Origin: Patescibacteria group bacterium
GTDB taxonomy: Bacteria; Patescibacteriota; Microgenomatia; UBA8517
DNA: 64,000 nucleotides
Assembly (NCBI GenBank): GCA_036835125.1
Contig: DAITMO010000001.1
Location: 57,444 to 121,443, forward strand
Direction: 5' to 3'
The notes beneath the pieces are model-generated. The model made no database searches. It worked only from the letters and a program-made list of their open reading frames with translations, and had not been told where the DNA came from. This document shows positions 1,181 through 28,518 of the stretch, one piece after another; positions within the stretch are counted from its first letter, which is position 1; each line of letters starts with the position of its first letter. The translations under genes and the position numbers were made by a program.

Positions 1181-1847
1181 TTTGAAGCGAAACTTCCTTG
1201 TACAAATAGTATGTTGGTAATATATAAAGAGCTCCCAAAAAACTAAAAATCACCATTCCGACTCCATATGGAAGAGACGAAAAAATAATTTGGGAAAGTA
1301 TATAGAAAATTCCAAAAACTAGATTTCGAACCAATATTTTCCAAAATTTTCCTTTGACAAGTTTTTTGCTTTCTTTTAGAGACAATTTAATTCCTTTATT
1401 TTCAATAACTATTAAAAATTTACTAAAGATAAACCATGTTGAAAACAAGACAAAAGGAACTACTAACACTAATAATCCAACTATGTATAAAACGTAAAGA
1501 ATTATGCTTAAAAACAAAAATTTCCAATATCTTTTGATTACAACTTTATAAATATCTCTAATATTTTCTTTTTTATCTTCTTGTACTTTAGAAATTGCAA
1601 TTATCCCAGCTAGATTAACAAACACTGTTATCAACACAAATAACACATTTAAGATACTTGTGATTGGTTTACCTTGGGAAACAGAAAGGTAATTAGAAAC
1701 TACTGGAATATAAACAGATACTGCGGAAATAATTGAAAGTATTCCTATTGGCAAATAAATTTTGGCAAAAAACACCAAATTTTCTCTTTTGAAAAAAACA
1801 TCAATTGATTTTTTAATTAATGTAAAAGGAGAGGAAATTATTTGCAT
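1170..1847 (-). CDS. Hypothetical polytopic membrane protein
   Basis: 225-aa ORF with multiple hydrophobic segments. No recognisable catalytic motif. Confidence 0.4.
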   Translation of the reverse strand: MQIISSPFTLIKKSIDVFFKRENLVFFAKIYLPIGILSIISAVSVYIPVVSNYLSVSQGKPITSILNVLFVLITVFVNLAGIIAISKVQEDKKENIRDIYKVVIKRYWKFLFLSIILYVLYIVGLLVLVVPFVLFSTWFIFSKFLIVIENKGIKLSLKESKKLVKGKFWKILVRNLVFGIFYILSQIIFSSLPYGVGMVIFSFLGALYILPTYYLYKEVSLQTID

Positions 1848-1887: not shown

Positions 1888-2202
1888 TTATTTTTCAACC
1901 ACTATTGTCTCACCTTTGAACAAGTTTAGCGAGTTGATGTTAATCTTAATAGTTTTTAATTCCAACTTCTTAAATTGTATTTTTGATATATCTTTAATGA
2001 GAAGGAATGCTGAGACTAGAGTTGTTAAAAGAAGGGCTATCAGAATAATCAATCTTTCTTTTTTACCCCAGGGTTTTGGAGGTTCTTTTCTTTTTTTCTT
2101 ATTTTCTGGATTAAGATCTTTGAGATTTTTGGTAATTTTCCTTTCTTCTCTAGTTTCTTCTATTTCTTCTTCCTCATCATTCTTTTTTTTGAATATAGAC
2201 AT
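1888..2202 (-). CDS. Hypothetical bitopic membrane protein (charged N-terminus, one TM segment)
   Basis: 104-aa ORF with a K/E-rich N-terminus followed by one hydrophobic helix. Preferred over the overlapping low-complexity + strand ORF 1850..2536. Confidence 0.3.
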   Translation of the reverse strand: MSIFKKKNDEEEEIEETREERKITKNLKDLNPENKKKRKEPPKPWGKKERLIILIALLLTTLVSAFLLIKDISKIQFKKLELKTIKININSLNLFKGETIVVEK

Positions 2203-2241: not shown

Positions 2242-3255
2242 TTATTTTCTTCTAATCTCCCAAACGTTTTCATCAACAAGATTCTCGGGTTTTTTATCTG
2301 AAAATATATTTATAATTGAATTTACAGCCATTTCCCCCATTTTGTTTCTTGCCTCCACTGTAGCGCTTGCTATATGGGGAGTAAGTATAACATTTGGCAT
2401 TGAGAGAAACTCCGGATTAATATTCGGTTCACTTTCAAAAACGTCAAGTGCTGCGCCTTTAAGTATCCCTCTCTTTAAAGCCTCTATGAGATCACTCTCT
2501 TCAACAACAGGGCCCCTTGCAGTATTAACTAGATAAGCACCTTCTTTCATTTTTTCAAATGCATCTATGTTTATCATTCCTCTTGTTTCATCGGTTAAAG
2601 GAACATGTAGAGAAATAAAATCAGAAGTTTTTAGAAGTTCGTCCAAAGATGAGTAAATAACTCCAAGTTCTTTTTCAGTATCAGGATTTTCTCTGTTGTG
2701 TTTATTATAAAGAACTTTCATTCCATACCCTTGTGCTTTTTTTGCAACCATTGAGCCAATTCTTCCAAGACCTATTATTCCTAAAGTTTTTCCTTTAATG
2801 GATCTGCCCAAAAATAGATCTGGTTCCCACCCTTTGTATCCCCCTGTCCCTGCAAAATATCCTTGATTTCTAACAAATTCATCTGATTCAACAACTCGTC
2901 TTGCTAAAGCAAGGATTAAAGCCCATGTGTGCTCTGCAACCGCTTCATTAACTTCATCAGAGGGAGTATTGGTGACAACAATTCCTCTTTTTGTGGCAGA
3001 AGGGATATCAATATTGTCAAAACCAACTGCGTAGTTACTTATTATCTTCAAACTCGGTCCTGCTGCATCCATTACATCTCCGTCAAATTTATCAGTCAAA
3101 AGGCTTAAGACTCCATCCATTCCTTTAATATTTTCAACAAGTTCTGAGCTTGTTAAAGGTCTATCAAGTTCGGAGACTTTTACCTCGAGCCCTGCCTCCT
3201 TAAGTTTTTCTAAATGATTACCTGGAATATTTCTTGTAACAAATATTTTTGCCAT
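2242..3255 (-). CDS. D-isomer-specific 2-hydroxyacid dehydrogenase (glyoxylate/hydroxypyruvate reductase or D-glycerate dehydrogenase-like)
   Basis: 337 aa. NAD-binding GxGxxG motif (GLGRIGS) and the catalytic R/E/H pattern of the D-2-hydroxyacid dehydrogenase family. Confidence 0.8.
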   Translation of the reverse strand: MAKIFVTRNIPGNHLEKLKEAGLEVKVSELDRPLTSSELVENIKGMDGVLSLLTDKFDGDVMDAAGPSLKIISNYAVGFDNIDIPSATKRGIVVTNTPSDEVNEAVAEHTWALILALARRVVESDEFVRNQGYFAGTGGYKGWEPDLFLGRSIKGKTLGIIGLGRIGSMVAKKAQGYGMKVLYNKHNRENPDTEKELGVIYSSLDELLKTSDFISLHVPLTDETRGMINIDAFEKMKEGAYLVNTARGPVVEESDLIEALKRGILKGAALDVFESEPNINPEFLSMPNVILTPHIASATVEARNKMGEMAVNSIINIFSDKKPENLVDENVWEIRRK

Positions 3256-3267
3256 ATTTTTATTATT

Positions 3268-4296
3268 TTATATTTGACTTACTGTCACTCCACTACTTCT
3301 TGCTCTTTCAAGCCAGGTTGCCATTTCCTCAATTCTAAGAAGTCCTTTTTGAGAACCTGTATATCCAATGACTGAAGCTGAATTGCAAGTTCCCCAAAGA
3401 AGCGCTTCTTCCAAGTTTTTTCCGTTAATTAATGCTGCCAAAACTCCTGATCCAAAAGAATCCCCTGCCCCTGTCCTTTCATATGCATCTACAGGAAGAA
3501 CACCTGCTTTCAAAAACTTCCCATTGATACTATCGTATGCAAACGATCCTTTTGAACCATCTGTAATAATTGATACTTTTGGTCCAAGTTTAGAAAGAGC
3601 AATTAATAAATCTCTTTCTTTTCCTGAAGAATCAGAGAAATTTGTTAGTTTTTCTGCTTCCTGTCTGTTCACAAAGATTAGGTAGGTCAATTCCATTACG
3701 TCCTTAATGTTTTCGTATTCTGCCCTCATTTGCCAACTTCCTGGATTAAATGCGAGTTTTGTATTTGGATTTTTTCTAATCCAATCAACCAAATGAATAT
3801 AAAATGGTCTAAAGCTTTCACCCATGCTTGTTAAATAGACCCAAGGGGTAGCTGGTAATTGAACTGGAAACTCGTAACTCCTCGGGGCATGATATACAAA
3901 AATTGTACGTTCTCCTGAATAATTAATTATTGTTGAATAGTTTGAAGTTGTTGAGGGTTGCTTAATTACATAAGTGATGTCCACTCCCTCGTCTTCTAGA
4001 CGTTTACTTATCATTTCTCCAACATTATCTTGTCCTAAAGTTAGAACTATTCCAGCATTCACCCCAAGACGCCTTACTCCGACTGCATTATTGGCAGCAT
4101 TTCCTCCAATTGAAAATTCAAGATTTCTAACTGGAATTTTATCTCCATATGAGAATGCTATTAAACACTCCTTTGTGTCCATCTTACAAAGAGTTTCTTT
4201 TTCTGTTGGAGTCATAAATACATCAATTGTTGCATCCCCAATTGACAATAGGTCGTAATATGAAGCCGGCAGTTTAGAGTTTTCCATTTCTAGCAT
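3268..4296 (-). CDS. PfkB-family carbohydrate kinase (ribokinase/phosphofructokinase-B superfamily)
   Basis: 342 aa. C-terminal TGAGDSF anion-hole motif and a GG dipeptide near the N-terminus, both typical of the PfkB family. Lies immediately upstream of the aldolase gene. Confidence 0.75.
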   Translation of the reverse strand: MLEMENSKLPASYYDLLSIGDATIDVFMTPTEKETLCKMDTKECLIAFSYGDKIPVRNLEFSIGGNAANNAVGVRRLGVNAGIVLTLGQDNVGEMISKRLEDEGVDITYVIKQPSTTSNYSTIINYSGERTIFVYHAPRSYEFPVQLPATPWVYLTSMGESFRPFYIHLVDWIRKNPNTKLAFNPGSWQMRAEYENIKDVMELTYLIFVNRQEAEKLTNFSDSSGKERDLLIALSKLGPKVSIITDGSKGSFAYDSINGKFLKAGVLPVDAYERTGAGDSFGSGVLAALINGKNLEEALLWGTCNSASVIGYTGSQKGLLRIEEMATWLERARSSGVTVSQI

Positions 4297-5257
4297 CCGC
4301 CACTTTCTTTAAGCGGTTTATAAATATATTTTGTGCAGCTTGTCTATTCTCATCTTTTCCTAACCAACCTAATAACGCTTCTTCCTGTAGTGCTCTAGAA
4401 AAAGAAAAGGATAATTCCCATGGGGCATCGTTTTTGAGTTTAACAATTTCATTCAGATTGTTTGTGGCTTCATCTGGTGTTTGACCACCAGAAAGAAATA
4501 CTATTCCAGGAACCTCTTTTGGAACAGATTTTCTTAAAGCCCTTAGCGTAGAATTGGCTACTTCTAAGGGAAGAGCTTTAACTCCTGAGTCAGGACCGGG
4601 AAGTGACATGCTTGTTTTTACTAACAAATTTTTTATATCAACTCCTTCTTTTTGAAGTTTTTCAAACAATCTTGTTAGTGTTTCGTCTATCGTTTCACTA
4701 CATCTTGTAGTTGTGTGGTTTCCTTCTAAAAGTATTTCTGGCTCAACTATTGGTACAATTCCTGCTTCTTGGGAAAGTTTTGCATATTTTGTCATTCGAC
4801 CCAAATTCTCTTCAAAAAATGCATCAGATGGATATTTGTCATTAATTTTAAAAACTCCTCTCCATTTACTAAACTTCATTCCAAGACTCGAGTATTCTTT
4901 TAATCTTTCTTCTAACGTTTCTAATCCCTTTGTTATTTGTTCTTCCGTACCATTAAAAGATTCCAAACCCTCATCAACTTTGATACCGGGAATGATACCT
5001 TTCCCTTCAAGAATTTTATGAAGATTTTGACGAACAGATTCATCAAATAAAATAACTCCACTTATATAATTTTCTATTCCAGGAGTTTCAAAAAGCATTG
5101 TTCGATAGCTTTTATGTGTTTCGGGAGTAGAGGGAATTCCAAAGGCAGTAAACCTTTTATCTATTGTTTTTGTGCTTTCATCGGCTGCAAGTATTCCTTT
5201 ACCGTAAGAAAACAATTTTTGGACAGTTTCCTCCATATAAATTAAGTTTAAAGCCAA
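4274..5257 (-). CDS. fba: Fructose-bisphosphate aldolase, class I (Schiff-base type)
   Basis: 327 aa. The N-terminal GKGILAADES motif and overall architecture match eukaryote-type class I FBA. Confidence 0.85.
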   Translation of the reverse strand: MALNLIYMEETVQKLFSYGKGILAADESTKTIDKRFTAFGIPSTPETHKSYRTMLFETPGIENYISGVILFDESVRQNLHKILEGKGIIPGIKVDEGLESFNGTEEQITKGLETLEERLKEYSSLGMKFSKWRGVFKINDKYPSDAFFEENLGRMTKYAKLSQEAGIVPIVEPEILLEGNHTTTRCSETIDETLTRLFEKLQKEGVDIKNLLVKTSMSLPGPDSGVKALPLEVANSTLRALRKSVPKEVPGIVFLSGGQTPDEATNNLNEIVKLKNDAPWELSFSFSRALQEEALLGWLGKDENRQAAQNIFINRLKKVADARNGKL

Positions 5258-5280
5258 ATCTTTTATGAGTAAAGCGGATT

Positions 5281-5577
5281 ATGTTACAATCGTTTGGAAT
5301 GGAACCTACTCATAAAAGGAGTGACAATGTTATTACAATTGCCAGTGTTGCTCTTTTTATTCTTGCAGCTTTTGGAGTGATAGTATTTTTGTATAACCAG
5401 AATCAGTCTTTGAAGAAACAGTTGATTGAATATAAAACAGTGAACACTTCATCTCCAACCTCAAACCCAACACAGACACCAGATCTAACATTAAAAGAGG
5501 ACTCATCAGTGTCTGCTTCTCCGACTATAAAGGCGACAGCTAAACCAATAGCAACTTCATCGGCAACTGTAAATTAA
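5281..5577 (+). CDS. Small membrane-anchored Thr/Pro/Ser-rich protein
   Basis: 98-aa ORF with one N-terminal hydrophobic helix followed by a low-complexity T/P/S tail. Confidence 0.3.
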   Translation: MLQSFGMEPTHKRSDNVITIASVALFILAAFGVIVFLYNQNQSLKKQLIEYKTVNTSSPTSNPTQTPDLTLKEDSSVSASPTIKATAKPIATSSATVN

Positions 5578-5584
5578 CTAGTAG

Positions 5585-6526
5585 TTAAGAGTTTTTACGA
5601 AGTATTACCTTTTTAACTGCTTCAATAATATTTTCTTTTGTTAAGCCAAATTTTTTCCAAAGTTCCTGATAATTTTTTGCAGACTCTCCGAATGAATCTT
5701 TTACTCCAATAAATTCCATTGGAACAAGGTGTCCCTGGGTTACAACTTCAGAAACTGCACTTCCTAAACCCCCATAAACTTGATGTTCTTCAATTGTTAC
5801 TATTCCTCCACAAATTCTAGCGGCATTTGTTATTGCAATGTCATCAATAGGTTTAACTGTATGACAGTTAATAACCATTACCTCAATTCCAATTTGAGAG
5901 AGTTCCTCTGCAGCTTTTAATCCTTCTACCAAAATTGGTCCTGCTCCAATAATTGCAACTTGAGGATCTTTTGCTTCTCGTAATATTGAGACTTTTCCTA
6001 TTCCAAATTCTCCATTTGAAACAATTTCTGATTCTTGTCTTGCAAGACGTAGATATGATGGTTTTCCGTTTTCTGCAATAGCAAATGTTGCTCTTTTGGC
6101 CTCTTCAAAATCTCCTGGAATCTCAACAATCATGTTTGGGATTACCCGCATGAGGGCAATGTCTTCTAAACTTTCATGGGTTGCTCCATACATTGAAGCG
6201 CCAAACCCTGCATGAGCGCCAATTATTTTTACAGGCAGATCATTTAAAGCTATTGCTACTTTGATGTGTTCCCAAGTCCTTCCAGGAGAAAATACTGCAT
6301 ATGAAGTAATGAAAGGAATTTTACCTGCTTGTGCCATTCCAGCAGCTACTGTAACAAGAGATTGTTCGGCTACACCCACCTGGAAAAATCTGTCTGGAAA
6401 TTTTTTTGCAAAACCGGAAACCCTTGTTGAGTCTGCCAAATCGGCTGTCAAAACTACAATGTTTGAATTTTGTTCTCCAAGCTCGACCAATGCTTCCCCA
6501 AAACCATCTCTCATAGATTTTTTCAT
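5585..6526 (-). CDS. Transketolase, C-terminal subunit (pyrimidine-binding and C-terminal domains)
   Basis: 313 aa, matching the C-terminal half of transketolase. It overlaps the N-terminal-subunit gene by 4 nt, the split archaeal/CPR-style arrangement. Confidence 0.85.
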   Translation of the reverse strand: MKKSMRDGFGEALVELGEQNSNIVVLTADLADSTRVSGFAKKFPDRFFQVGVAEQSLVTVAAGMAQAGKIPFITSYAVFSPGRTWEHIKVAIALNDLPVKIIGAHAGFGASMYGATHESLEDIALMRVIPNMIVEIPGDFEEAKRATFAIAENGKPSYLRLARQESEIVSNGEFGIGKVSILREAKDPQVAIIGAGPILVEGLKAAEELSQIGIEVMVINCHTVKPIDDIAITNAARICGGIVTIEEHQVYGGLGSAVSEVVTQGHLVPMEFIGVKDSFGESAKNYQELWKKFGLTKENIIEAVKKVILRKNS

Positions 6527-7314
6527 TTTAGTTCCTCCATTCCTTTTTTGAATTCATCTTCATTCGGTGCTTTTGCGTGCCAATCGGGGTTTTCTTCCAT
6601 GAAGCTTATCCCTCTACCAAAAATTGTGTTGGCAATTATTACTGTTGGTTTTTCTTTTTTGCTTATTTCTTCTCCTTTTTTTATTTTGTCTAAAGTACTC
6701 ATTATCTCTTCAAAATTATGACCATTTATTTCAAAAACATTCCAACTAGCCGCCTCATATTTTTCTTTTAAGTTTCCTAAAGGCATAATTTCCTCTGTAG
6801 TTCCCTCAATTTGAATTCCATTTTTATCAATTATCTGAATAAGATTTGAAAGACTGTATTTTGCAGCAAAGTTGACAGCTTCCCAATGACTTCCCTCATT
6901 GTGCTCCCCATCACTGGTCATACAATAAACTGTTTTATCCTTTTTGATGGCTGCAAATCCAGAAGCTACCCCCAATCCCATTCCTAAAGATCCTGAAGTT
7001 ATTTCAATTCCTTTTATTCTTAACTTTTCAGGATGTCCTTGAAGAGGAGAATCAAGCTCTGTGTAAGTTGAAAGAAGAGCGCGATCAATAATTCCTTTTT
7101 CTATCATTACAGAATAAAGTGCCGGACAAACATGTCCATTACTCAAAAAGAAATGTGAGTTTTCGTCCATCTTTCCAAAATACAAAGAGACTAATAGTTC
7201 AACAGCAGATAGTGACCCTCCTGGGTGTCCACTTCCCGCTTTATAAACCATCTCTAAGATATCCTTCCTAACCTGAAGCGCAATACTTTGTAATTCTTCT
7301 ATTGGTTTTTCCAT
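6523..7314 (-). CDS. Transketolase, N-terminal subunit (TPP-binding)
   Basis: 263 aa with the TPP-binding GDG...N motif region (TSDGEHNEGSHWEA) and a GHPE-like motif. Confidence 0.85.
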   Translation of the reverse strand: MEKPIEELQSIALQVRKDILEMVYKAGSGHPGGSLSAVELLVSLYFGKMDENSHFFLSNGHVCPALYSVMIEKGIIDRALLSTYTELDSPLQGHPEKLRIKGIEITSGSLGMGLGVASGFAAIKKDKTVYCMTSDGEHNEGSHWEAVNFAAKYSLSNLIQIIDKNGIQIEGTTEEIMPLGNLKEKYEAASWNVFEINGHNFEEIMSTLDKIKKGEEISKKEKPTVIIANTIFGRGISFMEENPDWHAKAPNEDEFKKGMEELK

Positions 7315-7339
7315 ATAATTTAAAGTTTTTAACTAGGAG

Positions 7340-7981
7340 TTAAATCTTAAATGCTCCATCAATTGAACCATCTTTATGAATTTCACAACCTCTTTCCGAA
7401 GTTTTTCTTTCAAACCTTTCCACTGCAGATAGAACCTCTTCTTTACTATTACAAATTTCAAAGACACTCATTTCTGTAGAATCAATATTCATGCTTTTTC
7501 TAAATACATCTAGTATTTCTGCCCAGAAATCACCAAAAAGAATAATTGGTTTATGGTATCCATAATAGATTTTGGCTAGTACCCAGGCAGTTCCAAACTC
7601 AGAAACTGTGCCACTTCCTCCTTTAAATATCAAAAAAATGTCTCCGTACTCAATAAGTTTGAACATGCGTTCTATATAGTTAGTTGTAACCACTTCTGCA
7701 TCAGTCACATTTTTAATGTAGCGCCCTTCATAACCTACAGCTCCTACTGGGTCAAATGTCACAGATACAGTTTTTCCCCCACCCTTTTTTGCTCCACTTG
7801 TTGCAGCTTCCATTACTCCAGGGCCACCTCCATCAACTATTACGTATCCTTTCTCTCCTAAAGCTTCTGCCACTTCAAAAGCATCTTTATATGTTTCATC
7901 TGTTTCTGAAATATTTGCATCACCAAAAAAAGTGATGTTTTTGATGCATCTTTGATTTGAATATTTTTTTGTTTCTTCCAT
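7340..7981 (-). CDS. LOG family protein (TIGR00730 Rossmann-fold nucleotide-binding protein)
   Basis: 213 aa. Carries the GGGPGVMEA and GGxGT...E motifs characteristic of LOG / lysine-decarboxylase-like proteins. Confidence 0.7.
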   Translation of the reverse strand: MEETKKYSNQRCIKNITFFGDANISETDETYKDAFEVAEALGEKGYVIVDGGGPGVMEAATSGAKKGGGKTVSVTFDPVGAVGYEGRYIKNVTDAEVVTTNYIERMFKLIEYGDIFLIFKGGSGTVSEFGTAWVLAKIYYGYHKPIILFGDFWAEILDVFRKSMNIDSTEMSVFEICNSKEEVLSAVERFERKTSERGCEIHKDGSIDGAFKI

Positions 7982-7996
7982 ATAAAATATAAACCC

Positions 7997-9109
7997 TTAT
8001 AAACCAGAGGAAAAAGACAATGAAATTGGATCAGTTGGAATGTTTCCTCCTTCTAAACTCCTTCCAACGCGAATTACCTGTTCAATAAGCCTATTTGCAT
8101 ATCCCCACTCATTGTCGTACCAAGCAAATACTTTGACTAAGTTTCCACCGATGACTTGAGTAAGTGGTAGATCGACAATTGCTGATTCGCTTCGCCCTAT
8201 GATATCGCTAGATACTAATTGTTCCTCAGAAATTGCCAAAATTCCCTTATATATGGGGTTTTGTAAGGCATCTTTAAATGCTTGATTTACCTCTTCTACT
8301 GTTACTTCTTTTTTCAAGATTACCGCAAAATCTGTCATGGAACCGGTTGTCACAGGAACTCTTAGGGCTACTCCATCAAACTTATCTTTAAGGGAAGGGA
8401 TTGTCTCGGTTGTTGCAATTGCTGCCCCAGTGGAAGTTGGAACTATGTTTTGGGCAGCTGCTCTAGCCCGTCTTAAGTCTTTATGTGAACCATCTTGCAA
8501 ATTCTGATCATCAGTATATGCATGTATTGTTGTCATTGCTGCTTTTTCAATTCCAAATTTGGATTCTAAAACTGCCATTACTGGTGCAACACAATTTGTG
8601 GTGCAACTAGCATTTGATATAACCTCGGGAGAACCTTCTATTTCATTTACACCAACTACATATGTTCCAACATTCTCCCCTTTTGCTGGAGCTGATATTA
8701 CAACTCTTTTTGCTCCCCCAATGGCATGCTTCATGGCATCTTCTTTTTTAGTAAAAGCACCAGTTGATTCAATTACAACGTCAACATTATATTTCCCCCA
8801 TGGAATTTTTTCTGGATCTTTTTGAGCAAGAACAGGAACTTTTACGCCTCTTTCAGAAATCATTATTTCCCCAATTAGAGGATCTTCGTCTGTTGCTTCT
8901 TTTGGATCCTTAATATTTTTACCTTCTATTTTGTACTGAAAAGCTCTATACATAGTGTCATTATTGGTTAAATAAGCCCAATCTTTTGCAGGCATGCTTC
9001 CTGAAGTATTAATTGCAACAAACTCTATCTCGTCCAAGTGTTTGACTACACCAATTCTGAAGGCTAAACGTCCTATTCTTCCAAAACCATTTATTCCAAC
9101 TTTAATCAT
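7997..9109 (-). CDS. gap: Glyceraldehyde-3-phosphate dehydrogenase, type I
   Basis: 370 aa. N-terminal INGFGRIGR NAD-binding motif and the catalytic ASCTTNCVAP motif. Confidence 0.9.
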   Translation of the reverse strand: MIKVGINGFGRIGRLAFRIGVVKHLDEIEFVAINTSGSMPAKDWAYLTNNDTMYRAFQYKIEGKNIKDPKEATDEDPLIGEIMISERGVKVPVLAQKDPEKIPWGKYNVDVVIESTGAFTKKEDAMKHAIGGAKRVVISAPAKGENVGTYVVGVNEIEGSPEVISNASCTTNCVAPVMAVLESKFGIEKAAMTTIHAYTDDQNLQDGSHKDLRRARAAAQNIVPTSTGAAIATTETIPSLKDKFDGVALRVPVTTGSMTDFAVILKKEVTVEEVNQAFKDALQNPIYKGILAISEEQLVSSDIIGRSESAIVDLPLTQVIGGNLVKVFAWYDNEWGYANRLIEQVIRVGRSLEGGNIPTDPISLSFSSGL

Positions 9110-9201
9110 GTACTTATAATTTCTAAACTGTACATGACATTCTTTTTGTCATGGCAGTAAATTCATTTTATCACGAGGTTTTGTTTATTCCGAGTAGTAG
9201 G

Positions 9202-10173
9202 CTAACTAACTAAAGCTTCAATTCCAGGTAATGTTCTTTTTGAAAGGAATTCAAGCATAGCCCCTCCACCAACAGAGACCCAATCAAATTTATCTTCCAA
9301 AGAATAGATTGACAAAACTGAAAGACTATCACCTCCACCAACAATTTTGAAAGCATTACTTGATGCTATCTTGTTAAATATTCGTTCTGTCCCCTGTCTA
9401 TGACCTTCATCTTCATACCTACCTAAAGGACCGGCTAGTACTATTGTTTTTGCATTTTCAATTTCTTTTTCAAATCTATCAATTGAATTTAGTGTAATAT
9501 CCTCTTTATCTTGGTTTAGGTTTGCAATAATTACTTTACTATCCGCCTTTACTTCCCTAACACTTTCTAGCGCTAAATCTCCATAATATTCAGGAAGTCT
9601 TCCTCCAACTAATATTTTATCTGCAAGGCTTTCTAAATTAGATATATATTCTTTTTTGTCATCTTTTGATCCTCCTACAACAAAAAGAAGTGGTCTTTGT
9701 GGATTTTCAAAAACTGAGCTTAGATTTCTTACTTCTTCAATAAATCTCAAGCCTGCAGCATGTGGAAGTATCTTAGGAAGTGTGGTTATTGAGGCAGAAT
9801 CTCTATGAGAGGTTGCAAAAGCTTCATTGATATAGACATCCCCTTTAGCTGCAAGCATCTTTGCAAATTCAGGGTCATTTGATTCTTCTCCTGAATCAAA
9901 CCTTAAATTTTCTAGGACCTCAAACTCTATATTTGGACACAACTTCTTCAACTCTTTTGCAACTGGATCGATTTTTAATTCATCAACAACTTTTCCATTA
10001 GGTCTCCCCAAGTGCCCAATAATAATTATCTTTGATGCTTTTGAAGATAAATACTCGAGGGTTGGAATAATTGCTTCTAATCTATAGTTTTCTCCCAAAT
10101 CTATGTCCAAATCAGCCCTAACAATTACTCTTTTACCGGAAACATCGATATCTTTAACACTTGGCAGTTGCAT
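9202..10173 (-). CDS. pgk: Phosphoglycerate kinase (compact form)
   Basis: 323 aa. PGK signatures present: GHLGRPNG, LENLRFD, YINEAFATSHR, GGSKDDK, GGGDS and SVGGGAMLEFL. It is shorter than the typical ~395 aa. Confidence 0.8.
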   Translation of the reverse strand: MQLPSVKDIDVSGKRVIVRADLDIDLGENYRLEAIIPTLEYLSSKASKIIIIGHLGRPNGKVVDELKIDPVAKELKKLCPNIEFEVLENLRFDSGEESNDPEFAKMLAAKGDVYINEAFATSHRDSASITTLPKILPHAAGLRFIEEVRNLSSVFENPQRPLLFVVGGSKDDKKEYISNLESLADKILVGGRLPEYYGDLALESVREVKADSKVIIANLNQDKEDITLNSIDRFEKEIENAKTIVLAGPLGRYEDEGHRQGTERIFNKIASSNAFKIVGGGDSLSVLSIYSLEDKFDWVSVGGGAMLEFLSKRTLPGIEALVS

Positions 10174-10222
10174 ACAATAATATTATCAGTTAAATAGTTT
10201 GACAGTCTAGCAGCTTTAGCCT

Positions 10223-10672
10223 TTAATTATTTGCTTCTATCTCTTTAATTTCTTGAAGTCTTCTTTCATATTTTGCTCTCCCTGAGAATTTTGTTTCTAA
10301 AAATGCAATTAACATTGCTTTGGCCTCTTTCTCTTCTGTGAAGTCAGCCGCAATAACCAATATGTTCATGTCATCATCATTCCTTCCTGCCTCAACTTGA
10401 AAAACATCTTTTCCAATTGAAGCACGAATCCCATCAAATTTATTAGCAACAATATCAACCCCCACCCCACTTCCACAAAGAAGAACTCCTCGCGAATTCT
10501 CTGTCTTTGCAACTAAAGAAGCTACTTGTTCTGCATACTTAGTGTAGTCATCATTTGGGTCAAGGTGATTTGCTCCAAGATCTTGATATGGATACTCCAT
10601 TTCAAATAGCCACTTAGCAATTTTTTCCTTGAGTTCATACCCTCTATGGTCTGCACCTAAAAATATTTTCAT
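10223..10672 (-). CDS. rpiB: Ribose-5-phosphate isomerase B
   Basis: 149 aa. RpiB/LacA family signatures: MKIFLGADHRGYELK and CGSGVGVDIVANK. Confidence 0.85.
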   Translation of the reverse strand: MKIFLGADHRGYELKEKIAKWLFEMEYPYQDLGANHLDPNDDYTKYAEQVASLVAKTENSRGVLLCGSGVGVDIVANKFDGIRASIGKDVFQVEAGRNDDDMNILVIAADFTEEKEAKAMLIAFLETKFSGRAKYERRLQEIKEIEANN

Positions 10673-10686
10673 TATTGTTTATCCTG

Positions 10687-11346
10687 TTATTTGAAACCTT
10701 CTGTCAATTCCAACAATTTTGCTTTTGGATTATCTGCTTTAATAACAGCTGTTGCAATAGCAATTCCAGTTGCTCCCAACTCAATGCTTTTTTTGATGTC
10801 CTCCGTAGATGATATTCCAGCACCAACAATGAGAGGTTCTCCACCTTCTTTGGCTATGACTACAGCTTGAGAAATAATTTCTGGTTGAGATCTCGCAACT
10901 GAATTTGTAGTTGAACCAACAAGTTCAGGTGGCTCATATGCAACATATGTAGGTTTTAAGTCTATAACTTTTTTTAACTCTTCAAGACTGCCTGCAAAAA
11001 TTAATGTTTTTAGATTTGCAGAAAGGGATTTTTCATTTGCCAAACGAAGTGCCTCAAAGTCGTTAAATTTATGCTCACTATGATTTAGAAATACTCCTGA
11101 TACACCAACTCTTGAGACTTCTTCAGGTAATGTCCAACCAGTATGTGCACCAAAACTTACTGGATCAACGTGCTGAATCCAAACTTCAAGGGTAGTGGTA
11201 GCTACAATTCTTTCTGCATCTATTACTTGAACTACTGGTATGATTTTAATTTGTGATTCCCTTGCAGCTTCCTCAAGAGATCTTGTGAGAGTGATTGCTT
11301 TTTCACCTGAGCTTTCTTCAAAAGTTTTGTAGTTAACAAAAATCAT
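10687..11346 (-). CDS. tpiA: Triosephosphate isomerase, archaeal-type short form
   Basis: 219 aa. VNYKTF, HVD, GAHTG, LNHSEHK, YVAYEPPELVG and GAGISSTEDIKKSIELGATG align motif-for-motif with the ~225-aa archaeal TIMs from memory. Confidence 0.75.
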   Translation of the reverse strand: MIFVNYKTFEESSGEKAITLTRSLEEAARESQIKIIPVVQVIDAERIVATTTLEVWIQHVDPVSFGAHTGWTLPEEVSRVGVSGVFLNHSEHKFNDFEALRLANEKSLSANLKTLIFAGSLEELKKVIDLKPTYVAYEPPELVGSTTNSVARSQPEIISQAVVIAKEGGEPLIVGAGISSTEDIKKSIELGATGIAIATAVIKADNPKAKLLELTEGFK

Positions 11347-11600
11347 TATTGTTTATATATAACTATTGAGTCTAACTTGCCTTTATCAAAGCCAACAATA
11401 GTCTCCTTTGTTCCATTATCAAGAGTGATAACGGTAAAAGGAACTCCTGAAAACCCTCCTGATTGACTATCCATTTCTTCCAATGCTTTTTCATCAATGT
11501 CTATTAGTTTCTCTGTGTAGGGAATATTTTTTCCATCCAAATAATCTTTAAGCATTTTGCAGTAGGGACAACTTGATGTGGAATATATTGTTATCTGCAT
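11346..11600 (-). CDS. Glutaredoxin-like thioredoxin-fold protein
   Basis: 84 aa with the CPYC active site near the N-terminus. Shares its start/stop nucleotide with the TIM gene. Confidence 0.7.
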   Translation of the reverse strand: MQITIYSTSSCPYCKMLKDYLDGKNIPYTEKLIDIDEKALEEMDSQSGGFSGVPFTVITLDNGTKETIVGFDKGKLDSIVIYKQ

Positions 11601-11648: not shown

Positions 11649-12089
11649 TTAAAAAGATCCCGTCAGAATAGTTTCATCACCCTTCATGATAATCAACTGT
11701 TTATAGTTTCTATATTTTGAAAGATCAAATTCCAAAATATAGCCACCTTTTGCTGATATTAGACTGCCAATCATGATTTTTGAAGATCCATTTGCTACAA
11801 AAACTTTATATGATTCTCCTATTTCTAATTCTGGCAAGTCTGCATATACACCTGTCGTCGTAAGTATTCCCATTCCCTCTCTACCTGAAACATTTACAAG
11901 TTCTATTGTATTCTCGTCATCAGGAATTGTCACACCTTTTATTTTTTCCTTAATTTGGGTCTCTACGGTAGAAGTTTCTTCTGGAATATAGCTAATAGAT
12001 GTTTTATTGTTTTTTTTGAAAAAATAAAGAAATCCTGCTAGAAGAAGCACTAATATCAAAAAGGCAATAATTACTCTTTTTATATTCAC
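11649..12089 (-). CDS. Hypothetical membrane-anchored protein
   Basis: 146-aa ORF with a single N-terminal TM helix. Confidence 0.35.
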   Translation of the reverse strand: MNIKRVIIAFLILVLLLAGFLYFFKKNNKTSISYIPEETSTVETQIKEKIKGVTIPDDENTIELVNVSGREGMGILTTTGVYADLPELEIGESYKVFVANGSSKIMIGSLISAKGGYILEFDLSKYRNYKQLIIMKGDETILTGSF

Positions 12090-12169
12090 CTTGAGCGAAA
12101 GATATCATTCCCTTTTCCTTTTGTCAAATTAATAAATACCGCAAATTTACTGCAGTTTTTCCGCTAGGA

Positions 12170-14007: not shown

Positions 14008-14045
14008 GCAGCTATTCTACCATTAAGTTACGCTCAAAAAAAGTC

Positions 14046-18155: not shown

Positions 18156-18180
18156 ATTGATACTTTAATTAGAACCTTCG

Positions 18181-26552: not shown

Positions 26553-26617
26553 ATATCATACTAATAAAACCCGAAGATAAAATCAATAACCAATTTAAAA
26601 AAGTGGATGTATTAATA

Positions 26618-28512: not shown

Positions 28513-28518
28513 CTCAAA

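What the first reader, a model, noticed from the sequence alone, without database searches (positions are those of the whole stretch)
2242..11600. Nine-kb minus-strand central-carbon supercluster built from archaeal-type or minimal enzyme versions
Eleven consecutive co-oriented genes encode the following, with stop/start overlaps or spacers under 50 nt: 2-hydroxyacid dehydrogenase, PfkB kinase, class I Schiff-base FBA, transketolase split into N and C subunits, a LOG-family protein, GAPDH, a 323-aa PGK, RpiB, a 219-aa archaeal-type TIM and a glutaredoxin. The split transketolase and short TIM are hallmarks of archaea and some CPR bacteria. The class I FBA is eukaryote-type. The PfkB-family kinase placed directly before the aldolase may be the missing phosphofructokinase (PfkB-type) or a ribokinase feeding nucleoside ribose through RpiB and transketolase into lower glycolysis. 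The LOG-family gene embedded between the transketolase and gap genes is a curious insertion.
Basis: partly seen in the sequence, partly recalled or inferred. Interest (0 to 1): 0.5.

Follow-up and report, generated by a model that had tools for sequence, protein, structure and literature searches.

The report
Woesebacterial pentose-to-ATP gene supercluster
A tiny-genome (CPR, Woesebacteria) bacterium keeps almost all its sugar-phosphate-burning enzymes in one gene row that is conserved across about 75 related species, and a sugar kinase fused to the aldolase gene is a testable candidate for the phosphofructokinase and transaldolase steps reported as missing from these bacteria.

Summary
All eleven gene calls are correct (Pfam/NCBIfam), but the row is not seamless. 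A 98-aa opposite-strand membrane-protein gene sits in a 348-nt gap between transketolase-C and FBA, and the PGK-GAPDH spacer is 92 nt. The window is a Ca. Woesebacteria (CPR) genome. The order Grx-TIM-RpiB-PGK | GAPDH-(Rpe)-LOG-TKN-TKC | FBA-PfkB-HADH is colinear in 35/35 fully covered species-level loci. It forms three tight modules separated by two insertion hot spots. TIM is archaeal-type, which is already published. PGK is a real, widespread mini-form of about 320 aa. GAPDH, PGK and RpiB are bacterial-type, and the class I FBA belongs to a large bacterial family. LOG is a core member, not an insertion (51/53 loci; next to Rpe in 21). PfkB overlaps the FBA stop codon and follows FBA in 68/73 loci. 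In two species FBA is replaced in place by an archaeal class IA FBA that still overlaps PfkB. PfkB matches no characterised kinase family. My best reading is a nucleotide-ribose/pentose-phosphate to 3-PG fermentation cluster. In it, PfkB+FBA would phosphorylate and cleave F6P and sedoheptulose-7-P, replacing PFK and transaldolase. This is inferred, not shown. It is a new variant of a known kind, of moderate interest.

The parts
12099..12127 (-). Promoter-like site (TTGACA-17-TATCTT with TG). It is the candidate start of the first transcription unit.
   Evidence: One search scored it 10/12. It lies just upstream of the orf146 GTG start. This is a consensus match only and has not been tested.
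11649..12089 (-). orf146, a signal-anchored protein of unknown function. It is co-oriented and syntenic with the cluster.
   Evidence: It has no Pfam hit. It is found upstream of Grx in 17 relatives at 32-53% identity.
11346..11600 (-). Glutaredoxin (84 aa) with a CPYC active site.
   Evidence: Pfam PF00462, 48.5 bits. The ATG at 11600 gives MQITIYSTSSCPYCK. The gene caller's 69-aa start loses the CPYC.
10687..11346 (-). Archaeal-type triosephosphate isomerase (219 aa).
   Evidence: PRK04302 scores 197.7 bits, above the cutoff of 132. The only PDB hits are the archaeal TIMs 1hg3, 2h6r, 1w0m and 5csr. The NYK, NHSE and EPPEL motifs are present.
10223..10672 (-). Ribose-5-phosphate isomerase B.
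   Evidence: PRK05571 scores 146.7 bits against a cutoff of 135, and PF02502 scores 134 bits.
9202..10173 (-). Mini phosphoglycerate kinase (323 aa).
   Evidence: PF00162 scores 260 bits in 3 stretches. It has deletions relative to T. maritima and human PGK. The AF2 model has pLDDT 90.9. Foldseek TM-score (query-normalised) is 0.79-0.88 to PGKs of 384-424 aa. The short form is conserved in more than 120 clusters and in most of the top 150 representatives.
9133..9153 (-). Hairpin (CATGACA-N7-TGTCATG) in the 92-nt PGK-GAPDH spacer, just after a TAAAAT...ACTGCC promoter-like element.
   Evidence: Relatives carry TAnAAT-N~8-ACTGCC abutting the GAPDH ATG, or a short leader with a different hairpin. 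Its function is not tested.
7997..9109 (-). Type I (bacterial) GAPDH, 370 aa, with an N-domain insertion and a C-terminal extension.
   Evidence: TIGR01534 scores 384 bits against a cutoff of 367. The SCTTN motif is present.
7340..7981 (-). LOG/SLOG-family protein, a probable nucleotide 5'-monophosphate phosphoribohydrolase that would yield ribose-5-P.
   Evidence: PF18306 scores 61 bits and PF03641 scores 47 bits. The closest PDB entries are the type II LOGs 1wek and 5wq3. The motifs GGGPGVMEA, ER and KGGSGTVSE are conserved in 58 orthologues. It lies between GAPDH/Rpe and TKN in 51/53 loci.
6523..7314 (-). Transketolase N-terminal (TPP-binding) subunit.
   Evidence: PF00456 scores 131.7 bits, and NF004556 scores 238.7 bits (half-length match).
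5585..6526 (-). Transketolase C-terminal subunit. It overlaps TKN by 4 nt.
   Evidence: PF02779 and PF02780 hit, and NF004559 scores 262.9 bits.
5281..5577 (+). Opposite-strand 98-aa single-pass membrane protein. It is the shortest member of a family that occupies the TKC|FBA insertion hot spot.
   Evidence: It has homologues at 35-54% identity at the same site, which are usually longer (92-550 aa) and carry the motif FLYYQNQQLK plus a P/T/S-rich linker.
4274..5236 (-). Class I (Schiff-base) fructose/sedoheptulose-bisphosphate aldolase. It lacks the eukaryotic C-terminal tail.
   Evidence: NF033379 scores 384.7 bits against a cutoff of 250, and PF00274 scores 340 bits. The best PDB entry is 6rng at 255 bits, aligned to residues 21-334 of 358. 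The catalytic and both phosphate-site residues are present.
3268..4296 (-). PfkB-family sugar(-phosphate) kinase. Its start overlaps the FBA stop by 14-23 nt. It is the candidate F6P/S7P 1-kinase.
   Evidence: PF00294 scores 147.7 bits. No NCBIfam equivalog is reached. It is 54-82% identical across 75 species. The junction sequence is and the family alignment is A4.
2242..3255 (-). D-2-hydroxyacid dehydrogenase of the glyoxylate/hydroxypyruvate reductase type. It is the presumed NAD(P)H-reoxidising step.
   Evidence: PF02826 and PF00389 hit. PRK13243 scores 368 bits, below the cutoff of 455. The closest PDB entries are the glyoxylate reductases 6bii, 5aov and 2dbq (archaeal, Pyrococcus, from my own recollection). 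It lies downstream of PfkB in 65/68 loci.
1888..2202 (-). orf104, a small charged N-terminal region plus a TM helix. It is syntenic with the cluster and its function is unknown.
   Evidence: It is found in 57 relatives at 34-63% identity.
1170..1847 (-). orf225, a multi-pass membrane protein that is the last co-oriented gene of the run.
   Evidence: It has weak PF10110, UPF0259 and DUF7847 hits. It is found in 34 relatives.

Best explanation
This is the lineage-wide central-carbon supercluster of Ca. Woesebacteria (CPR/Patescibacteria). It consists of three tightly packed modules separated by two insertion-prone junctions:
- Module A: Grx-TIM-RpiB-PGK.
- Module B: GAPDH-(Rpe in many relatives)-LOG-TKN-TKC.
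- Module C: FBA-PfkB-HADH.

Read as one pathway, it would convert pentose phosphate, most plausibly nucleotide-derived ribose-5-P, into 3-phosphoglycerate plus ATP without a canonical PFK or transaldolase. The steps would be:
1. LOG hydrolyses nucleoside 5'-monophosphates to base + R5P.
2. RpiB (and Rpe) make Ru5P and X5P.
3. Split transketolase makes S7P + G3P, and later F6P + G3P.
4. The PfkB kinase phosphorylates the C1 hydroxyl of S7P and F6P with ATP.
5. The translationally coupled class I aldolase cleaves SBP to DHAP + E4P and FBP to DHAP + G3P.
6. TIM, GAPDH and the mini-PGK carry triose-P to 3-PG and ATP.
7. The 2-hydroxyacid dehydrogenase reoxidises NAD(P)H.
8. The CPYC glutaredoxin serves thiol maintenance.

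Shown here: the gene identities, their conservation, order and coupling, the archaeal-type TIM, the mini-PGK, and intact catalytic motifs.

Inferred only: the substrates of PfkB, LOG and HADH, the direction of flux, and the absence of transaldolase and PFK from this genome.
For: - Gene identities are confirmed.
- Seventy-five Woesebacteria loci carry the PfkB orthologue. TIM to HADH is colinear in 35/35 fully covered loci, spanning 8.4-13.7 kb.
- Junctions within modules are tight. The FBA-PfkB junction has a median overlap of 17.5 nt. Only PGK|GAPDH and TKC|FBA are variable.
- In about 10 relatives TKC and FBA are only 19-39 nt apart. In L032 all twelve enzyme genes, including Rpe, are contiguous.
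- Rpe sits between GAPDH and LOG in 21 loci, which places LOG inside a run of pentose-phosphate genes.
- LOG catalytic motifs are invariant in 58 orthologues.
- FBA keeps the Schiff-base Lys and both phosphate sites: the equivalents of K107/S35/T38, and of S271/G272/R303. It therefore needs a ketose bisphosphate, which only a kinase could supply.
- In L055 and L068 the eukaryote-type FBA is replaced in place by an archaeal class IA FBA (1ojx, 232 bits). The replacement still overlaps the PfkB start. The aldolase-kinase pairing is therefore functional, not merely inherited.
- In other bacteria the same FBA family is preceded by GlpX FBPase/SBPase, the reverse-direction partner.
- PfkB is among the most conserved proteins of the cluster (median 67% identity).
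- PfkB lacks the ribokinase motif-I Lys. It has an invariant lid Lys 11 residues before the GG dipeptide, the same spacing as Pfk-2 K27.
- The KDG-kinase carboxylate arginines are absent from PfkB.
- Literature. PFK is nearly absent across CPR, and only ROK and ADP-PFK were tested as alternatives (PMC7304191). A complete Microgenomates genome lacks glucokinase, PFK, FBPase and transaldolase (PMC7143001). The S7P-kinase plus FBA bypass of transaldolase is established in Entamoeba and cellulolytic clostridia (PMC7029132, PMC12203962). A PfkB next to FBA was predicted to be the PFK of Saccharibacteria strain TM7x (PMC12815258).
- No PfkA or transaldolase was found in 1.44 Mb of Woesebacteria flanks. 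This is weak evidence.
Against: - PfkB reaches no curated kinase family. Its best NCBIfam hits are iolC (104 bits), ribokinase (93) and fructoselysine kinase (90). It scores only 20.7 bits against PRK10294, the Pfk-2 model.
- E. coli Pfk-2 is not among the PDB hits at E<=1e-5.
- The equivalent of Pfk-2's 6-phosphate-binding Arg90 is not conserved in my by-eye alignment.
- Ribokinase Glu143 and Asp16 equivalents are conserved, so a neutral pentose or hexose substrate remains possible.
- The AF2 model of PfkB was too poor to use (pLDDT 59.7).
- Genome-wide absence of transaldolase, PFK and FBPase could not be tested for this organism.
- Rpe is not in this genome's cluster or in the 64-kb window. 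No Rpe on the 778-kb contig appeared among the top 120 Woesebacterial Rpe hits.
- An opposite-strand gene splits the row, so one polycistronic transcript is unproven.
- HADH resembles glyoxylate/hydroxypyruvate reductases more than D-lactate dehydrogenases.
- LOG scores below the TIGR00730 cutoff (67.7 vs 96.35).
Confidence: 0.5

Rival explanations
1. PfkB is a ribokinase, nucleoside kinase or fructokinase that only feeds a free sugar into the pathway. FBA then acts on imported FBP, or works gluconeogenically with an unidentified phosphatase. S7P is handled by an unrecognised enzyme.
For: Ribokinase is the second-best NCBIfam hit (92.7 bits). The profile-PDB ranking puts ribokinases and the MJ0406 sugar kinase (a nucleoside kinase, from my own recollection) close to the top. 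Equivalents of ribokinase D16, N46, E143 and D255 are conserved. The Ch65 paper's metabolic figure lists a ribokinase. In the distant loci L081/L082 the PfkB homologue sits near NUDIX-Gmk and a metallophosphoesterase.
Against: The score is far below the ribokinase cutoff (299.65), and the motif-I Lys43 is replaced by Asn in all orthologues. A ribokinase would leave FBA without a substrate source and S7P as a dead end in a lineage reported to lack PFK, FBPase and transaldolase. It also does not explain the stop/start overlap with the aldolase, or why that overlap survives replacement of FBA by a non-homologous aldolase.
Confidence: 0.2
2. The cluster runs anabolically, like the Calvin cycle. 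Triose-P from scavenged substrates is built into FBP and SBP by FBA, and then into F6P, E4P and R5P for cell-wall and nucleotide precursors. PfkB, LOG and HADH would be peripheral.
For: FBA, TK, RpiB, Rpe, TIM, GAPDH and PGK are exactly the reversible Calvin/non-oxidative set. A peptidoglycan synthesis gene lies next to the cluster (PBP), and my own inference is that such a cell needs F6P. In other bacteria this FBA family pairs with GlpX FBPase/SBPase.
Against: No FBPase or SBPase is in any of the 75 loci. Instead, an ATP-type kinase with intact NXXE and GAGD motifs is coupled to FBA. The Microgenomates genome Ch65 lacks FBPase. LOG releases R5P and does not consume it.
Confidence: 0.15
3. 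The row is inherited synteny of housekeeping genes in a streamlined genome, with no pathway-level logic. The adjacency of PfkB, LOG and HADH would then say nothing about their function.
For: All loci come from one lineage, so shared ancestry alone could preserve the order. Two junctions tolerate insertions of up to 5 kb, and an antisense gene is present.
Against: The order survives down to 40-55% protein identity. Overlapping stop/start junctions are preserved. The aldolase slot was refilled by a non-homologous aldolase. Rpe joins the same row in 21 species. A PfkB-HADH-GAPDH triad recurs in distant CPR at 32-49% identity.
Confidence: 0.1
4. The class I FBA itself acts as the missing transaldolase, as Kadnikov et al. 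2020 proposed for Ch65. PfkB would then be only an F6P kinase, or unrelated.
For: Both enzyme types use a Schiff-base lysine on a TIM barrel. FBA follows transketolase in the operon (PMC7143001).
Against: The protein passes the FBA equivalog NF033379 (384.7 bits vs 250). It retains the C1-phosphate site (equivalents of S271, G272 and R303) and the distal phosphate site, which fits DHAP rather than dihydroxyacetone transfer. Replacement by an archaeal FBP aldolase in L055 and L068 points to FBP/SBP aldolase as the selected activity.
Confidence: 0.05

Closest known systems
Sedoheptulose-1,7-bisphosphate (SBP) bypass of transaldolase in Entamoeba histolytica and cellulolytic clostridia (PMC7029132; PMC12203962)
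   Same: The gene content is transketolase + Rpi/Rpe + FBA + a sugar-phosphate 1-kinase, with no transaldolase recognised in the lineage. The kinase/aldolase pair would convert S7P to E4P + DHAP and F6P to two trioses.
   Different: The known cases use PfkA-superfamily (PPi- or ATP-dependent) PFKs. Here the candidate is a PfkB/ribokinase-fold kinase of an uncharacterised CPR-specific subfamily, and its gene overlaps the aldolase gene. S7P kinase activity is untested.
PfkB-type 6-phosphofructokinases (E. coli Pfk-2), and the predicted PfkB-type PFK TM7x_02415 of Nanosynbacter lyticus (PMC12815258)
   Same: It has the ribokinase-like fold with GG, NXXE and GAGD motifs. It has lost the motif-I lysine and has a lid lysine at the K27 spacing. 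It shares an operon with FBA, as reported for TM7x.
   Different: It scores only 20.7 bits against the Pfk-2 model and is not in the LacC/FruK/Pfk-2 subfamily. Arg90 is not conserved. The TM7x assignment is itself only a prediction supported by qPCR.
E. coli YdjH-YdjI kinase/aldolase pair (function of YdjH recalled from Huddleston & Raushel 2019; I could not retrieve the paper here)
   Same: YdjH (3h49) is the best solved match to the family profile (114 bits). As I recall, it is a C1 kinase for 7-9-carbon 2-ketoses with an anionic terminus, and its product is cleaved to DHAP by the neighbouring aldolase. That is the same logic as S7P to SBP to DHAP + E4P.
   Different: It scores only slightly above ribokinases. 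The YdjH substrate is a uronate, not a sugar phosphate, and YdjI is a class II aldolase. This resemblance is a lead, not a test.
Bacterial gap operons (for example Bacillus cggR-gapA-pgk-tpiA-pgm-eno, from my own knowledge), and the transketolase-FBA operon described in the Microgenomates genome Ch65 (PMC7143001)
   Same: GAPDH, PGK and TIM are co-localised. A class I FBA lies downstream of split transketolase in a Microgenomates genome that lacks PFK and transaldolase.
   Different: There is no CggR, pgm or eno. The cluster adds RpiB, (Rpe), LOG, PfkB, HADH and Grx. The gene order differs (TIM and PGK lie upstream of GAPDH). The full 11-14 gene conserved row, the PfkB coupling and the LOG membership were not described.
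Archaeal/CPR AMP (nucleotide-ribose) salvage through AMP phosphorylase, R15P isomerase and form II/III or III RuBisCO (PMC6389311)
   Same: The proposed purpose is the same. Ribose from scavenged nucleotides is funnelled into lower glycolysis for ATP in a reduced-genome symbiont.
   Different: The entry step is hydrolytic (LOG gives R5P) instead of phosphorolytic. Carbon passes through transketolase and aldolase rather than RuBisCO. No RuBisCO-pathway gene is in the cluster.

Membership tests
Archaeal-type triosephosphate isomerase (NCBIfam PRK04302) | Score above the curated cutoff and closer to archaeal than to bacterial/eukaryotic TIMs | tested here: met
   The score is 197.7 bits against a cutoff of 132. 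The general TIM model TIGR00419 scores only 94.7 bits, below its cutoff of 130.6. Only four PDB sequences match at E<=0.001, all annotated simply as triosephosphate isomerase; I recognise them as archaeal TIMs.
Archaeal-type triosephosphate isomerase (NCBIfam PRK04302) | Short chain (about 220-230 aa) with the catalytic Lys, His and Glu | tested here: met
   The protein is 219 aa. It contains VNYK, NHSEH and YEPPELVG.
Class I (Schiff-base) fructose-bisphosphate aldolase (PF00274 / NF033379) | Curated score cutoffs | tested here: met
   NF033379 scores 384.7 bits against 250. PF00274 scores 340 bits against 22.
Class I (Schiff-base) fructose-bisphosphate aldolase (PF00274 / NF033379) | Schiff-base Lys229, plus D33, K107, K146, R148, E187, S271 and R303 equivalents | tested here: met
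   AADES, GIKVD, SKWRGVFKI, IVEPEIL, LVKTSM, FLSGGQ and SFSRALQ are present. The key columns are invariant or nearly invariant in alignment A3. Rabbit aldolase numbering is from my own knowledge.
Class I (Schiff-base) fructose-bisphosphate aldolase (PF00274 / NF033379) | Eukaryotic C-terminal tail with the terminal Tyr | tested here: not met
   The 320-aa protein aligns to residues 21-334 of the 358-aa 6rng chain and ends at ...ARNGKL.
PfkB-type 6-phosphofructokinase (Pfk-2; PRK10294 / TIGR03168 hexose-kinase subfamily) | PfkB fold with the GG dipeptide, the NXXE motif and the GAGD catalytic Asp | tested here: met
   PF00294 scores 147.7 bits. GGNAANN, N-R-x-E and TGAGD are invariant.
PfkB-type 6-phosphofructokinase (Pfk-2; PRK10294 / TIGR03168 hexose-kinase subfamily) | Family-level score | tested here: not met
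   PRK10294 scores 20.7 bits against a cutoff of 353. TIGR03168 scores 54.4 against 216.4. Pfk-2 is absent from the PDB hits at E<=1e-5.
PfkB-type 6-phosphofructokinase (Pfk-2; PRK10294 / TIGR03168 hexose-kinase subfamily) | Phosphate-binding residues K27, R29 and R90 and loss of the motif-I Lys (PMC6429617) | tested here: inconclusive
   The motif-I Lys is replaced by Asn. An invariant lid Lys lies at the K27 spacing, 11 residues before GG. R29 and R90 equivalents are not conserved in a by-eye alignment. No usable structure model was obtained.
PfkB-type 6-phosphofructokinase (Pfk-2; PRK10294 / TIGR03168 hexose-kinase subfamily) | F6P (and S7P) 1-kinase activity | not testable with these tools
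   This needs an enzyme assay.
Ribokinase (TIGR02152 / PRK11142) | Curated cutoff and the ribose-binding K43 | tested here: not met
   The scores are 92.7 bits against 299.65 and 75.5 against 341. K43 is replaced by Asn in all orthologues. D16, N46, E143 and D255 equivalents are retained.
2-Keto-3-deoxygluconate kinase | Carboxylate-binding Arg105 and Arg167 (T. thermophilus numbering, from my own knowledge) and model cutoffs | tested here: not met
   In the 1v19 alignment, R105 aligns with an invariant His and R167 falls in a gap. The KDGK models score 37-57 bits against cutoffs of 400-440.
SBP pathway (transaldolase-independent non-oxidative PPP) | Transketolase, Rpi and an FBP/SBP aldolase present and linked | tested here: met
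   All lie in one conserved row. Rpe is in the row in 21 relatives, but it was not located in this genome.
SBP pathway (transaldolase-independent non-oxidative PPP) | Genome lacks transaldolase | not testable with these tools
   Only 64 kb plus 20-kb flanks were accessible. There was no hit in 1.44 Mb of flanks. Absence is reported for a related complete genome (PMC7143001).
LOG / nucleotide 5'-monophosphate phosphoribohydrolase (PF03641, TIGR00730, PpnN) | GGGxGxM nucleotide loop, catalytic Arg, and the PGGxGTxxE motif | tested here: met
   GGGPGVMEA, NYIERMFKL and KGGSGTVSE (Lys in place of Pro) are conserved in 58 orthologues. PF18306 scores 61.2 and PF03641 scores 47.1, both above their cutoffs.
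LOG / nucleotide 5'-monophosphate phosphoribohydrolase (PF03641, TIGR00730, PpnN) | NCBIfam family cutoff | tested here: not met
   TIGR00730 scores 67.7 against 96.35. The cytokinin LOG equivalog scores 41.6 against 300. PpnN scores 21 against 450.
Phosphoglycerate kinase (PF00162) | Two-domain PGK fold with the 3-PG basic patch and the phosphate-transfer residues | tested here: met
   The Pfam score is 260 bits. The AF2 model has pLDDT 90.9 and a TM-score (query-normalised) of up to 0.88 to PGKs. R38, H62, R65, R122, R170, K215, K219, E343 and GGGD equivalents are present.
Phosphoglycerate kinase (PF00162) | Canonical length (about 385-420 aa) and the adenine pocket (L256, F291, M311, L313, N336; human numbering, from my own knowledge) | tested here: not met
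   The protein is 323 aa. About 47 residues that span this pocket region are deleted, and N336 is replaced by Ala.
D-2-hydroxyacid dehydrogenase, glyoxylate/hydroxypyruvate reductase type (PRK13243) | Curated cutoff | tested here: not met
   The score is 368 bits against 455. Both Pfam domains score above their cutoffs. The Arg/Glu/His triad motifs are present.

The most novel reading that the evidence does not exclude
Woesebacteria, and perhaps other CPR, close their PFK-less and transaldolase-less central metabolism with a previously uncharacterised PfkB-fold ATP-dependent kinase. This kinase would phosphorylate both sedoheptulose-7-P and fructose-6-P and would be translationally coupled to the aldolase that cleaves the products. 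Together with a LOG-type NMP phosphoribohydrolase as the entry step, and a trimmed PGK with a remodelled nucleotide pocket, the cluster would be a self-contained, RuBisCO-independent 'nucleotide ribose to ATP' fermentation operon.
Probability: 0.35. Interest if true: 0.7.

Novelty: new variant of a known kind. Interest (0 to 1): 0.5.

Why it matters
CPR/Patescibacteria make up a large share of bacterial diversity. Genome surveys have repeatedly reported that they lack phosphofructokinase, and in some lineages transaldolase, so carbon flow between the upper and lower pathways is unexplained (PMC7304191, PMC7143001).

This cluster names one specific, highly conserved and easily expressed protein pair (PfkB + FBA) that would resolve both gaps at once. 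The cluster also points to a LOG enzyme as a nucleotide-ribose entry point. The question therefore becomes directly testable by enzyme assay or by complementation in E. coli.

The roughly 320-aa PGK family is a natural minimal version of a textbook two-domain kinase and is useful for studying which parts are dispensable.

If PfkB turns out to be an ordinary ribokinase, the cluster is simply a well-conserved housekeeping row.

Tried and rejected
- **AF2 model of PfkB.** The alignment of 14 close homologues (A1) was too shallow and gave pLDDT 59.7. I did no fold search or pocket analysis on it.
- **PfkB specificity from sequence.** NCBIfam, PDB phmmer and PDB profile search place the family roughly equidistant from ribokinase, iolC, fructokinase, KDGK, MJ0406 and YdjH. 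No assignment is possible from these. The KDG-kinase type is rejected because its arginines are missing.
- **A cluster-wide promoter motif (TAnAAT-N-ACTGCC).** It is seen upstream of GAPDH in relatives but is not a general motif in the window. I dropped it as a way to define transcription units.
- **The generic sigma-70 and terminator scan.** It found no enrichment over shuffles (41 vs 40.6 promoter-like sites; 6 vs 6.9 terminator-like sites), so it cannot define the operon structure.
- **Metagenome scan with the FBA profile, looking for a different kinase type after FBA.** It returned mostly unrelated high-GC bacteria without any kinase neighbour. The only useful result was the GlpX-FBA pairing.
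- **Rpe in this genome.** I searched with a Woesebacterial Rpe. No hit on the 778-kb contig appeared among the 120 hits listed, which is inconclusive.
- **Literature.** I found no report of an SBP bypass in CPR, of Woesebacteria with transaldolase, or of short PGKs. The YdjH and Pfk-2:F6P structure papers were not retrievable.
- **Rfam scan.** It found no riboswitch or other RNA family in the cluster.

Full report
**Observation**

Pfam and NCBIfam confirm every assignment:
- D-2-hydroxyacid dehydrogenase, 2242-3255
- PfkB kinase, 3268-4296
- class I FBA, 4274-5236
- transketolase C-half (5585-6526) and N-half (6523-7314)
- LOG/SLOG protein, 7340-7981
- type I GAPDH, 7997-9109
- a 323-aa PGK, 9202-10173
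- RpiB, 10223-10672
- a 219-aa TIM, 10687-11346
- an 84-aa glutaredoxin, 11346-11600. Its ATG at 11600 gives the CPYC site.

Two details of the description are wrong.
- Between TK-C and FBA there is a 348-nt gap. It holds a plus-strand 98-aa ORF with a clear transmembrane helix (5281-5577). An independent gene caller also calls this ORF.
- The PGK-GAPDH spacer is 92 nt.

The co-oriented run also extends beyond the stated limits. It includes orf146 upstream and orf104 and orf225 downstream, giving 12089 down to 1170.

**Organism and context**

The window has about 35% G+C. It encodes tmRNA/SmpB, EF-P, a PBP, DnaA/DnaN and a type IV secretion/pilin block. Homologues of its proteins that carry source names are labelled Ca. 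Woesebacteria or Microgenomates. Identical proteins occur on a 778-kb contig. This fits a small-genome CPR bacterium.

**Conservation and anatomy**

A scan of one genome per species with the PfkB profile returned 78 loci. Seventy-five of them are Woesebacteria-type. I mapped the window's proteins onto these loci with tblastn.
- The order TIM-RpiB-PGK-GAPDH-LOG-TKN-TKC-FBA-PfkB-HADH is colinear in 35 of 35 loci that cover it, spanning 8.4-13.7 kb.
- Median identities to the window proteins are: GAPDH 74%, RpiB 70%, PfkB 67%, LOG 65%, HADH 65%, FBA 59%, TIM 57%, TKC 56%, PGK 55% and TKN 48%.
- Junction lengths show three tight modules: Grx-TIM-RpiB-PGK, GAPDH-LOG-TKN-TKC and FBA-PfkB-HADH. They are separated by two insertion-prone junctions, PGK|GAPDH (median 612 nt) and TKC|FBA (median 1262 nt).
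- The TKC|FBA junction usually holds an opposite-strand gene for a single-pass membrane protein (motif FLYYQNQQLK followed by a Pro/Thr/Ser-rich linker; 92-550 aa). The window carries the shortest version. In about ten species TKC and FBA are only 19-39 nt apart.
- In 21 species, ribulose-phosphate 3-epimerase sits between GAPDH and LOG. The fullest form, for example L032, is therefore an uninterrupted twelve-enzyme row.

**Which parts are archaeal-type or minimal**

- **TIM** is archaeal-type. PRK04302 scores 198 bits against a cutoff of 132, and the only PDB matches are four archaeal TIMs. Jaffe et al. 2020 already reported that Microgenomates TIMs cluster with archaeal ones.
- **PGK** is a real mini-enzyme.
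  - Relative to T. maritima and human PGK, it lacks about 23 residues of the N-domain. It also lacks about 42-47 residues of the C-domain, which I assign from the sequence alignment and textbook PGK structure to a helix and a beta-hairpin lining the adenine pocket. All phosphate-transfer and 3-PG-binding residues remain.
  - AF2 gives a confident two-domain model with pLDDT 90.9. The model superposes on PGKs of 384-424 aa with a TM-score (query-normalised) of 0.79-0.88.
  - The short form is conserved in more than 120 90%-identity clusters. It also dominates the 150 closest 50%-identity representatives.
  - I found no report of this short form.
- **Other enzymes.** Transketolase is split, with a 4-nt overlap. 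GAPDH is bacterial type I and long (370 aa). RpiB is the ordinary bacterial type.
- **FBA** passes the bacterial class I FBA equivalog. It has hundreds of 45-50% identical relatives in high-GC bacteria. It lacks the eukaryotic C-terminal tail.
- **HADH** has its closest solved relatives among Pyrococcus glyoxylate reductases (about 300 bits).

The statement that the cluster is 'built from archaeal-type or minimal versions' therefore holds for TIM and PGK, and loosely for TK, FBA and HADH. It does not hold for the cluster as a whole.

**PfkB and the aldolase**

- The PfkB start (ATG at 4296 or 4287) overlaps the FBA stop (4274) by 23 or 14 nt. Across relatives the median overlap is 17.5 nt.
- A eukaryote-type FBA lies directly upstream of PfkB in 68 of 73 loci.
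- In L055 and L068 that slot holds a 258-aa DeoC/LacD-family aldolase instead. Its best solved relative is the Thermoproteus tenax archaeal class IA FBP aldolase (1ojx, 232 bits), and it again overlaps the PfkB start.
- This is a non-orthologous replacement in place. It argues that the FBP/SBP-aldolase activity, and its coupling to this kinase, is the thing being selected.
- In other bacteria the same FBA family is preceded by GlpX FBPase/SBPase. The usual neighbour of this aldolase is therefore the enzyme that interconverts the bisphosphate and the monophosphate.
- FBA retains both phosphate-binding sites, so it needs a ketose bisphosphate.
- PfkB has intact GG, NXXE and GAGD motifs but reaches no curated kinase family.
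- It is not KDG-kinase-like, because both carboxylate arginines are missing.
- It is not a ribokinase by score or by the motif-I lysine, although several ribose-contact equivalents are kept.
- Like E. coli Pfk-2, it has lost the motif-I lysine and has an invariant lid lysine 11 residues before the GG dipeptide, the position of Pfk-2 K27. The Arg90 equivalent is not conserved.
- The family profile's best solved match is E. coli YdjH. From memory, YdjH is a C1 kinase of long anionic 2-ketoses that works with an aldolase. I treat this only as a lead.
- The structure prediction for PfkB failed.

**LOG**

The LOG protein carries the family's nucleotide loop, catalytic Arg and (P/K)GGxGTxxE motif. 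These are invariant in 58 orthologues. It lies between GAPDH/Rpe and transketolase in 51 of 53 loci. LOG-family enzymes hydrolyse nucleoside 5'-monophosphates to base plus ribose-5-P (established family chemistry, from my own knowledge). Placing LOG among pentose-phosphate genes makes it a plausible entry step rather than an insertion.

**Proposed mechanism**

NMP is converted to R5P by LOG. RpiB and Rpe then give Ru5P and X5P. Transketolase gives S7P + G3P. PfkB converts S7P to SBP, and FBA cleaves SBP to DHAP + E4P. Transketolase then gives F6P + G3P. PfkB converts F6P to FBP, and FBA cleaves FBP to two trioses. TIM, GAPDH and PGK yield 3-PG and ATP. HADH reoxidises the reduced cofactor.

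With PfkB as an S7P/F6P kinase, the twelve-gene row is a closed route from R5P to 3-PG. Under any other PfkB function, S7P is a dead end and FBA has no substrate in a lineage reported to lack PFK, FBPase and transaldolase. The kinase-plus-aldolase bypass itself is established in Entamoeba and clostridia, where PfkA-type enzymes carry it out.

Shown here: gene identities, order, coupling, conservation and motif integrity. Inferred only: all substrate assignments for PfkB, LOG and HADH, the flux direction, and the genome-wide absence of Tal and Pfk.

**Caveats**

- I could not scan the whole genome.
- No PfkA or transaldolase appears in 1.44 Mb of Woesebacteria flanks, but this is weak evidence.
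- Rpe is not in this genome's cluster or in the window. It was not found on the 778-kb contig among the hits listed. It must lie elsewhere, or the model is incomplete for this subclade.
- The antisense gene and the 92-nt spacer make a single transcript unproven. The promoter and terminator scans were uninformative.
- HADH looks more like a glyoxylate/hydroxypyruvate reductase than a lactate dehydrogenase.

**Comparison with what is known, and novelty**

Already published:
- the archaeal-like TIM and class I FBA in these lineages, and the near-absence of PFK across CPR (Jaffe 2020)
- a TK-FBA operon in a Microgenomates genome that lacks PFK and Tal (Kadnikov 2020)
- a prediction that a PfkB gene next to FBA is the PFK of Saccharibacteria strain TM7x (2025)

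I did not find the following in the literature I could search:
- the full conserved supercluster and its modular anatomy
- the in-place aldolase replacement
- LOG (and Rpe) as core members
- the S7P-kinase/transaldolase-bypass reading
- the mini-PGK family

I rate this a new variant of a known kind and of moderate interest. Its main value is that it turns a long-standing gap in CPR metabolism into a simple enzyme assay.

Noticed in passing
window 18180-18457 (-): A tRNA-Thr(UGU) gene is interrupted in its anticodon loop by a 205-nt group I intron (Rfam RF00028, 80.6 bits). The standard ARAGORN run missed it. It was found only with the intron option.
   Followed up: partly
L055 9220-9996 and L068 979-1755: In two Woesebacteria species the eukaryote-type class I FBA upstream of PfkB is replaced in place by an archaeal class IA FBA (DeoC/LacD family; best PDB match T. 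tenax 1ojx). The replacement still overlaps the PfkB start.
   Followed up: yes
window 5281-5577 (+) and the TKC|FBA junction of L006-L080: A family of opposite-strand single-pass membrane proteins occupies the same intra-cluster junction in most relatives. They carry the motif FLYYQNQQLK, a P/T/S-rich linker, and a variable ectodomain (92-550 aa overall). The window has a 98-aa stump.
   Followed up: partly
window 9110-9201 (-) and the PGK|GAPDH spacers of relatives: Many relatives have TAnAAT-N~8-ACTGCC abutting the GAPDH ATG, which looks like a leaderless-type promoter. The window, L006, L040, L058 and L075 instead have a 40-60-nt leader that forms hairpins of different sequence.
   Followed up: partly
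L037, L059, L061, L067 (next to the main PfkB): A second PfkB paralogue (41-45% identity) lies in tandem. It has the same NCBIfam profile and also lacks the motif-I Lys. The two copies may have split specificities.
   Followed up: partly
L081-L083 (labelled Saccharibacteria, Berkelbacteria and Berkiella): A PfkB(32-35%)-HADH(46-48%)-GAPDH(46-49%) triad recurs in distant CPR. In L081 and L082 it is flanked by a NUDIX-guanylate kinase fusion, DsbA, a metallophosphoesterase, TrxB and SecDF, with no FBA adjacent.
   Followed up: partly
L006-L080, module GAPDH-(Rpe)-LOG-TKN-TKC: The identity pattern is mosaic. LOG falls into two classes (about 64-83% vs 43-48% identity to the window) and so does TKN (about 64-72% vs 42-50%). 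These classes do not track PfkB, GAPDH or HADH identity. Most of the 21 loci that carry Rpe in the cluster fall in the class with low TKN identity. This suggests module replacement or recombination.
   Followed up: no
window 11346-11600 (-): The public gene call for the glutaredoxin (69 aa) starts downstream of the CPYC active site. The 84-aa ORF starting at the ATG at 11600 restores it.
   Followed up: yes
window 13438-15077 (-): EF-P lies next to a 343-aa class II aaRS-like protein (tRNA-synt_2 domain only). This looks like an EpmA/PoxA-type EF-P lysylation pair. That reading comes from my own knowledge.
   Followed up: no
window about 35200-38000 (+) and 45219-51616 (+): There is an array of eight small T4SS-pilin (PF18895) genes. 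It is followed by large unannotated proteins, a YcaO plus nitroreductase pair, and PrgI/TraC/VirB4-like type IV secretion genes. DnaN and DnaA lie at 54968-57658.
   Followed up: no
window 26058-30369: Four tRNA-Ser genes (GGA, CGA, GCU, UGA) and one tRNA-Arg gene are clustered with two NUDIX genes, SmpB and a tmRNA. The tmRNA tag is unusually long (EKAKNFSAGLASLFGVNSVQPMYAQAFA).
   Followed up: no
loci L006, L009, L010, L017 and others: Many public MAG records that carry this Woesebacteria-type cluster are titled 'uncultured Gammaproteobacteria bacterium'. One is titled Alphaproteobacteria and one Azambacteria. These titles are evidently mislabelled.
   Followed up: no
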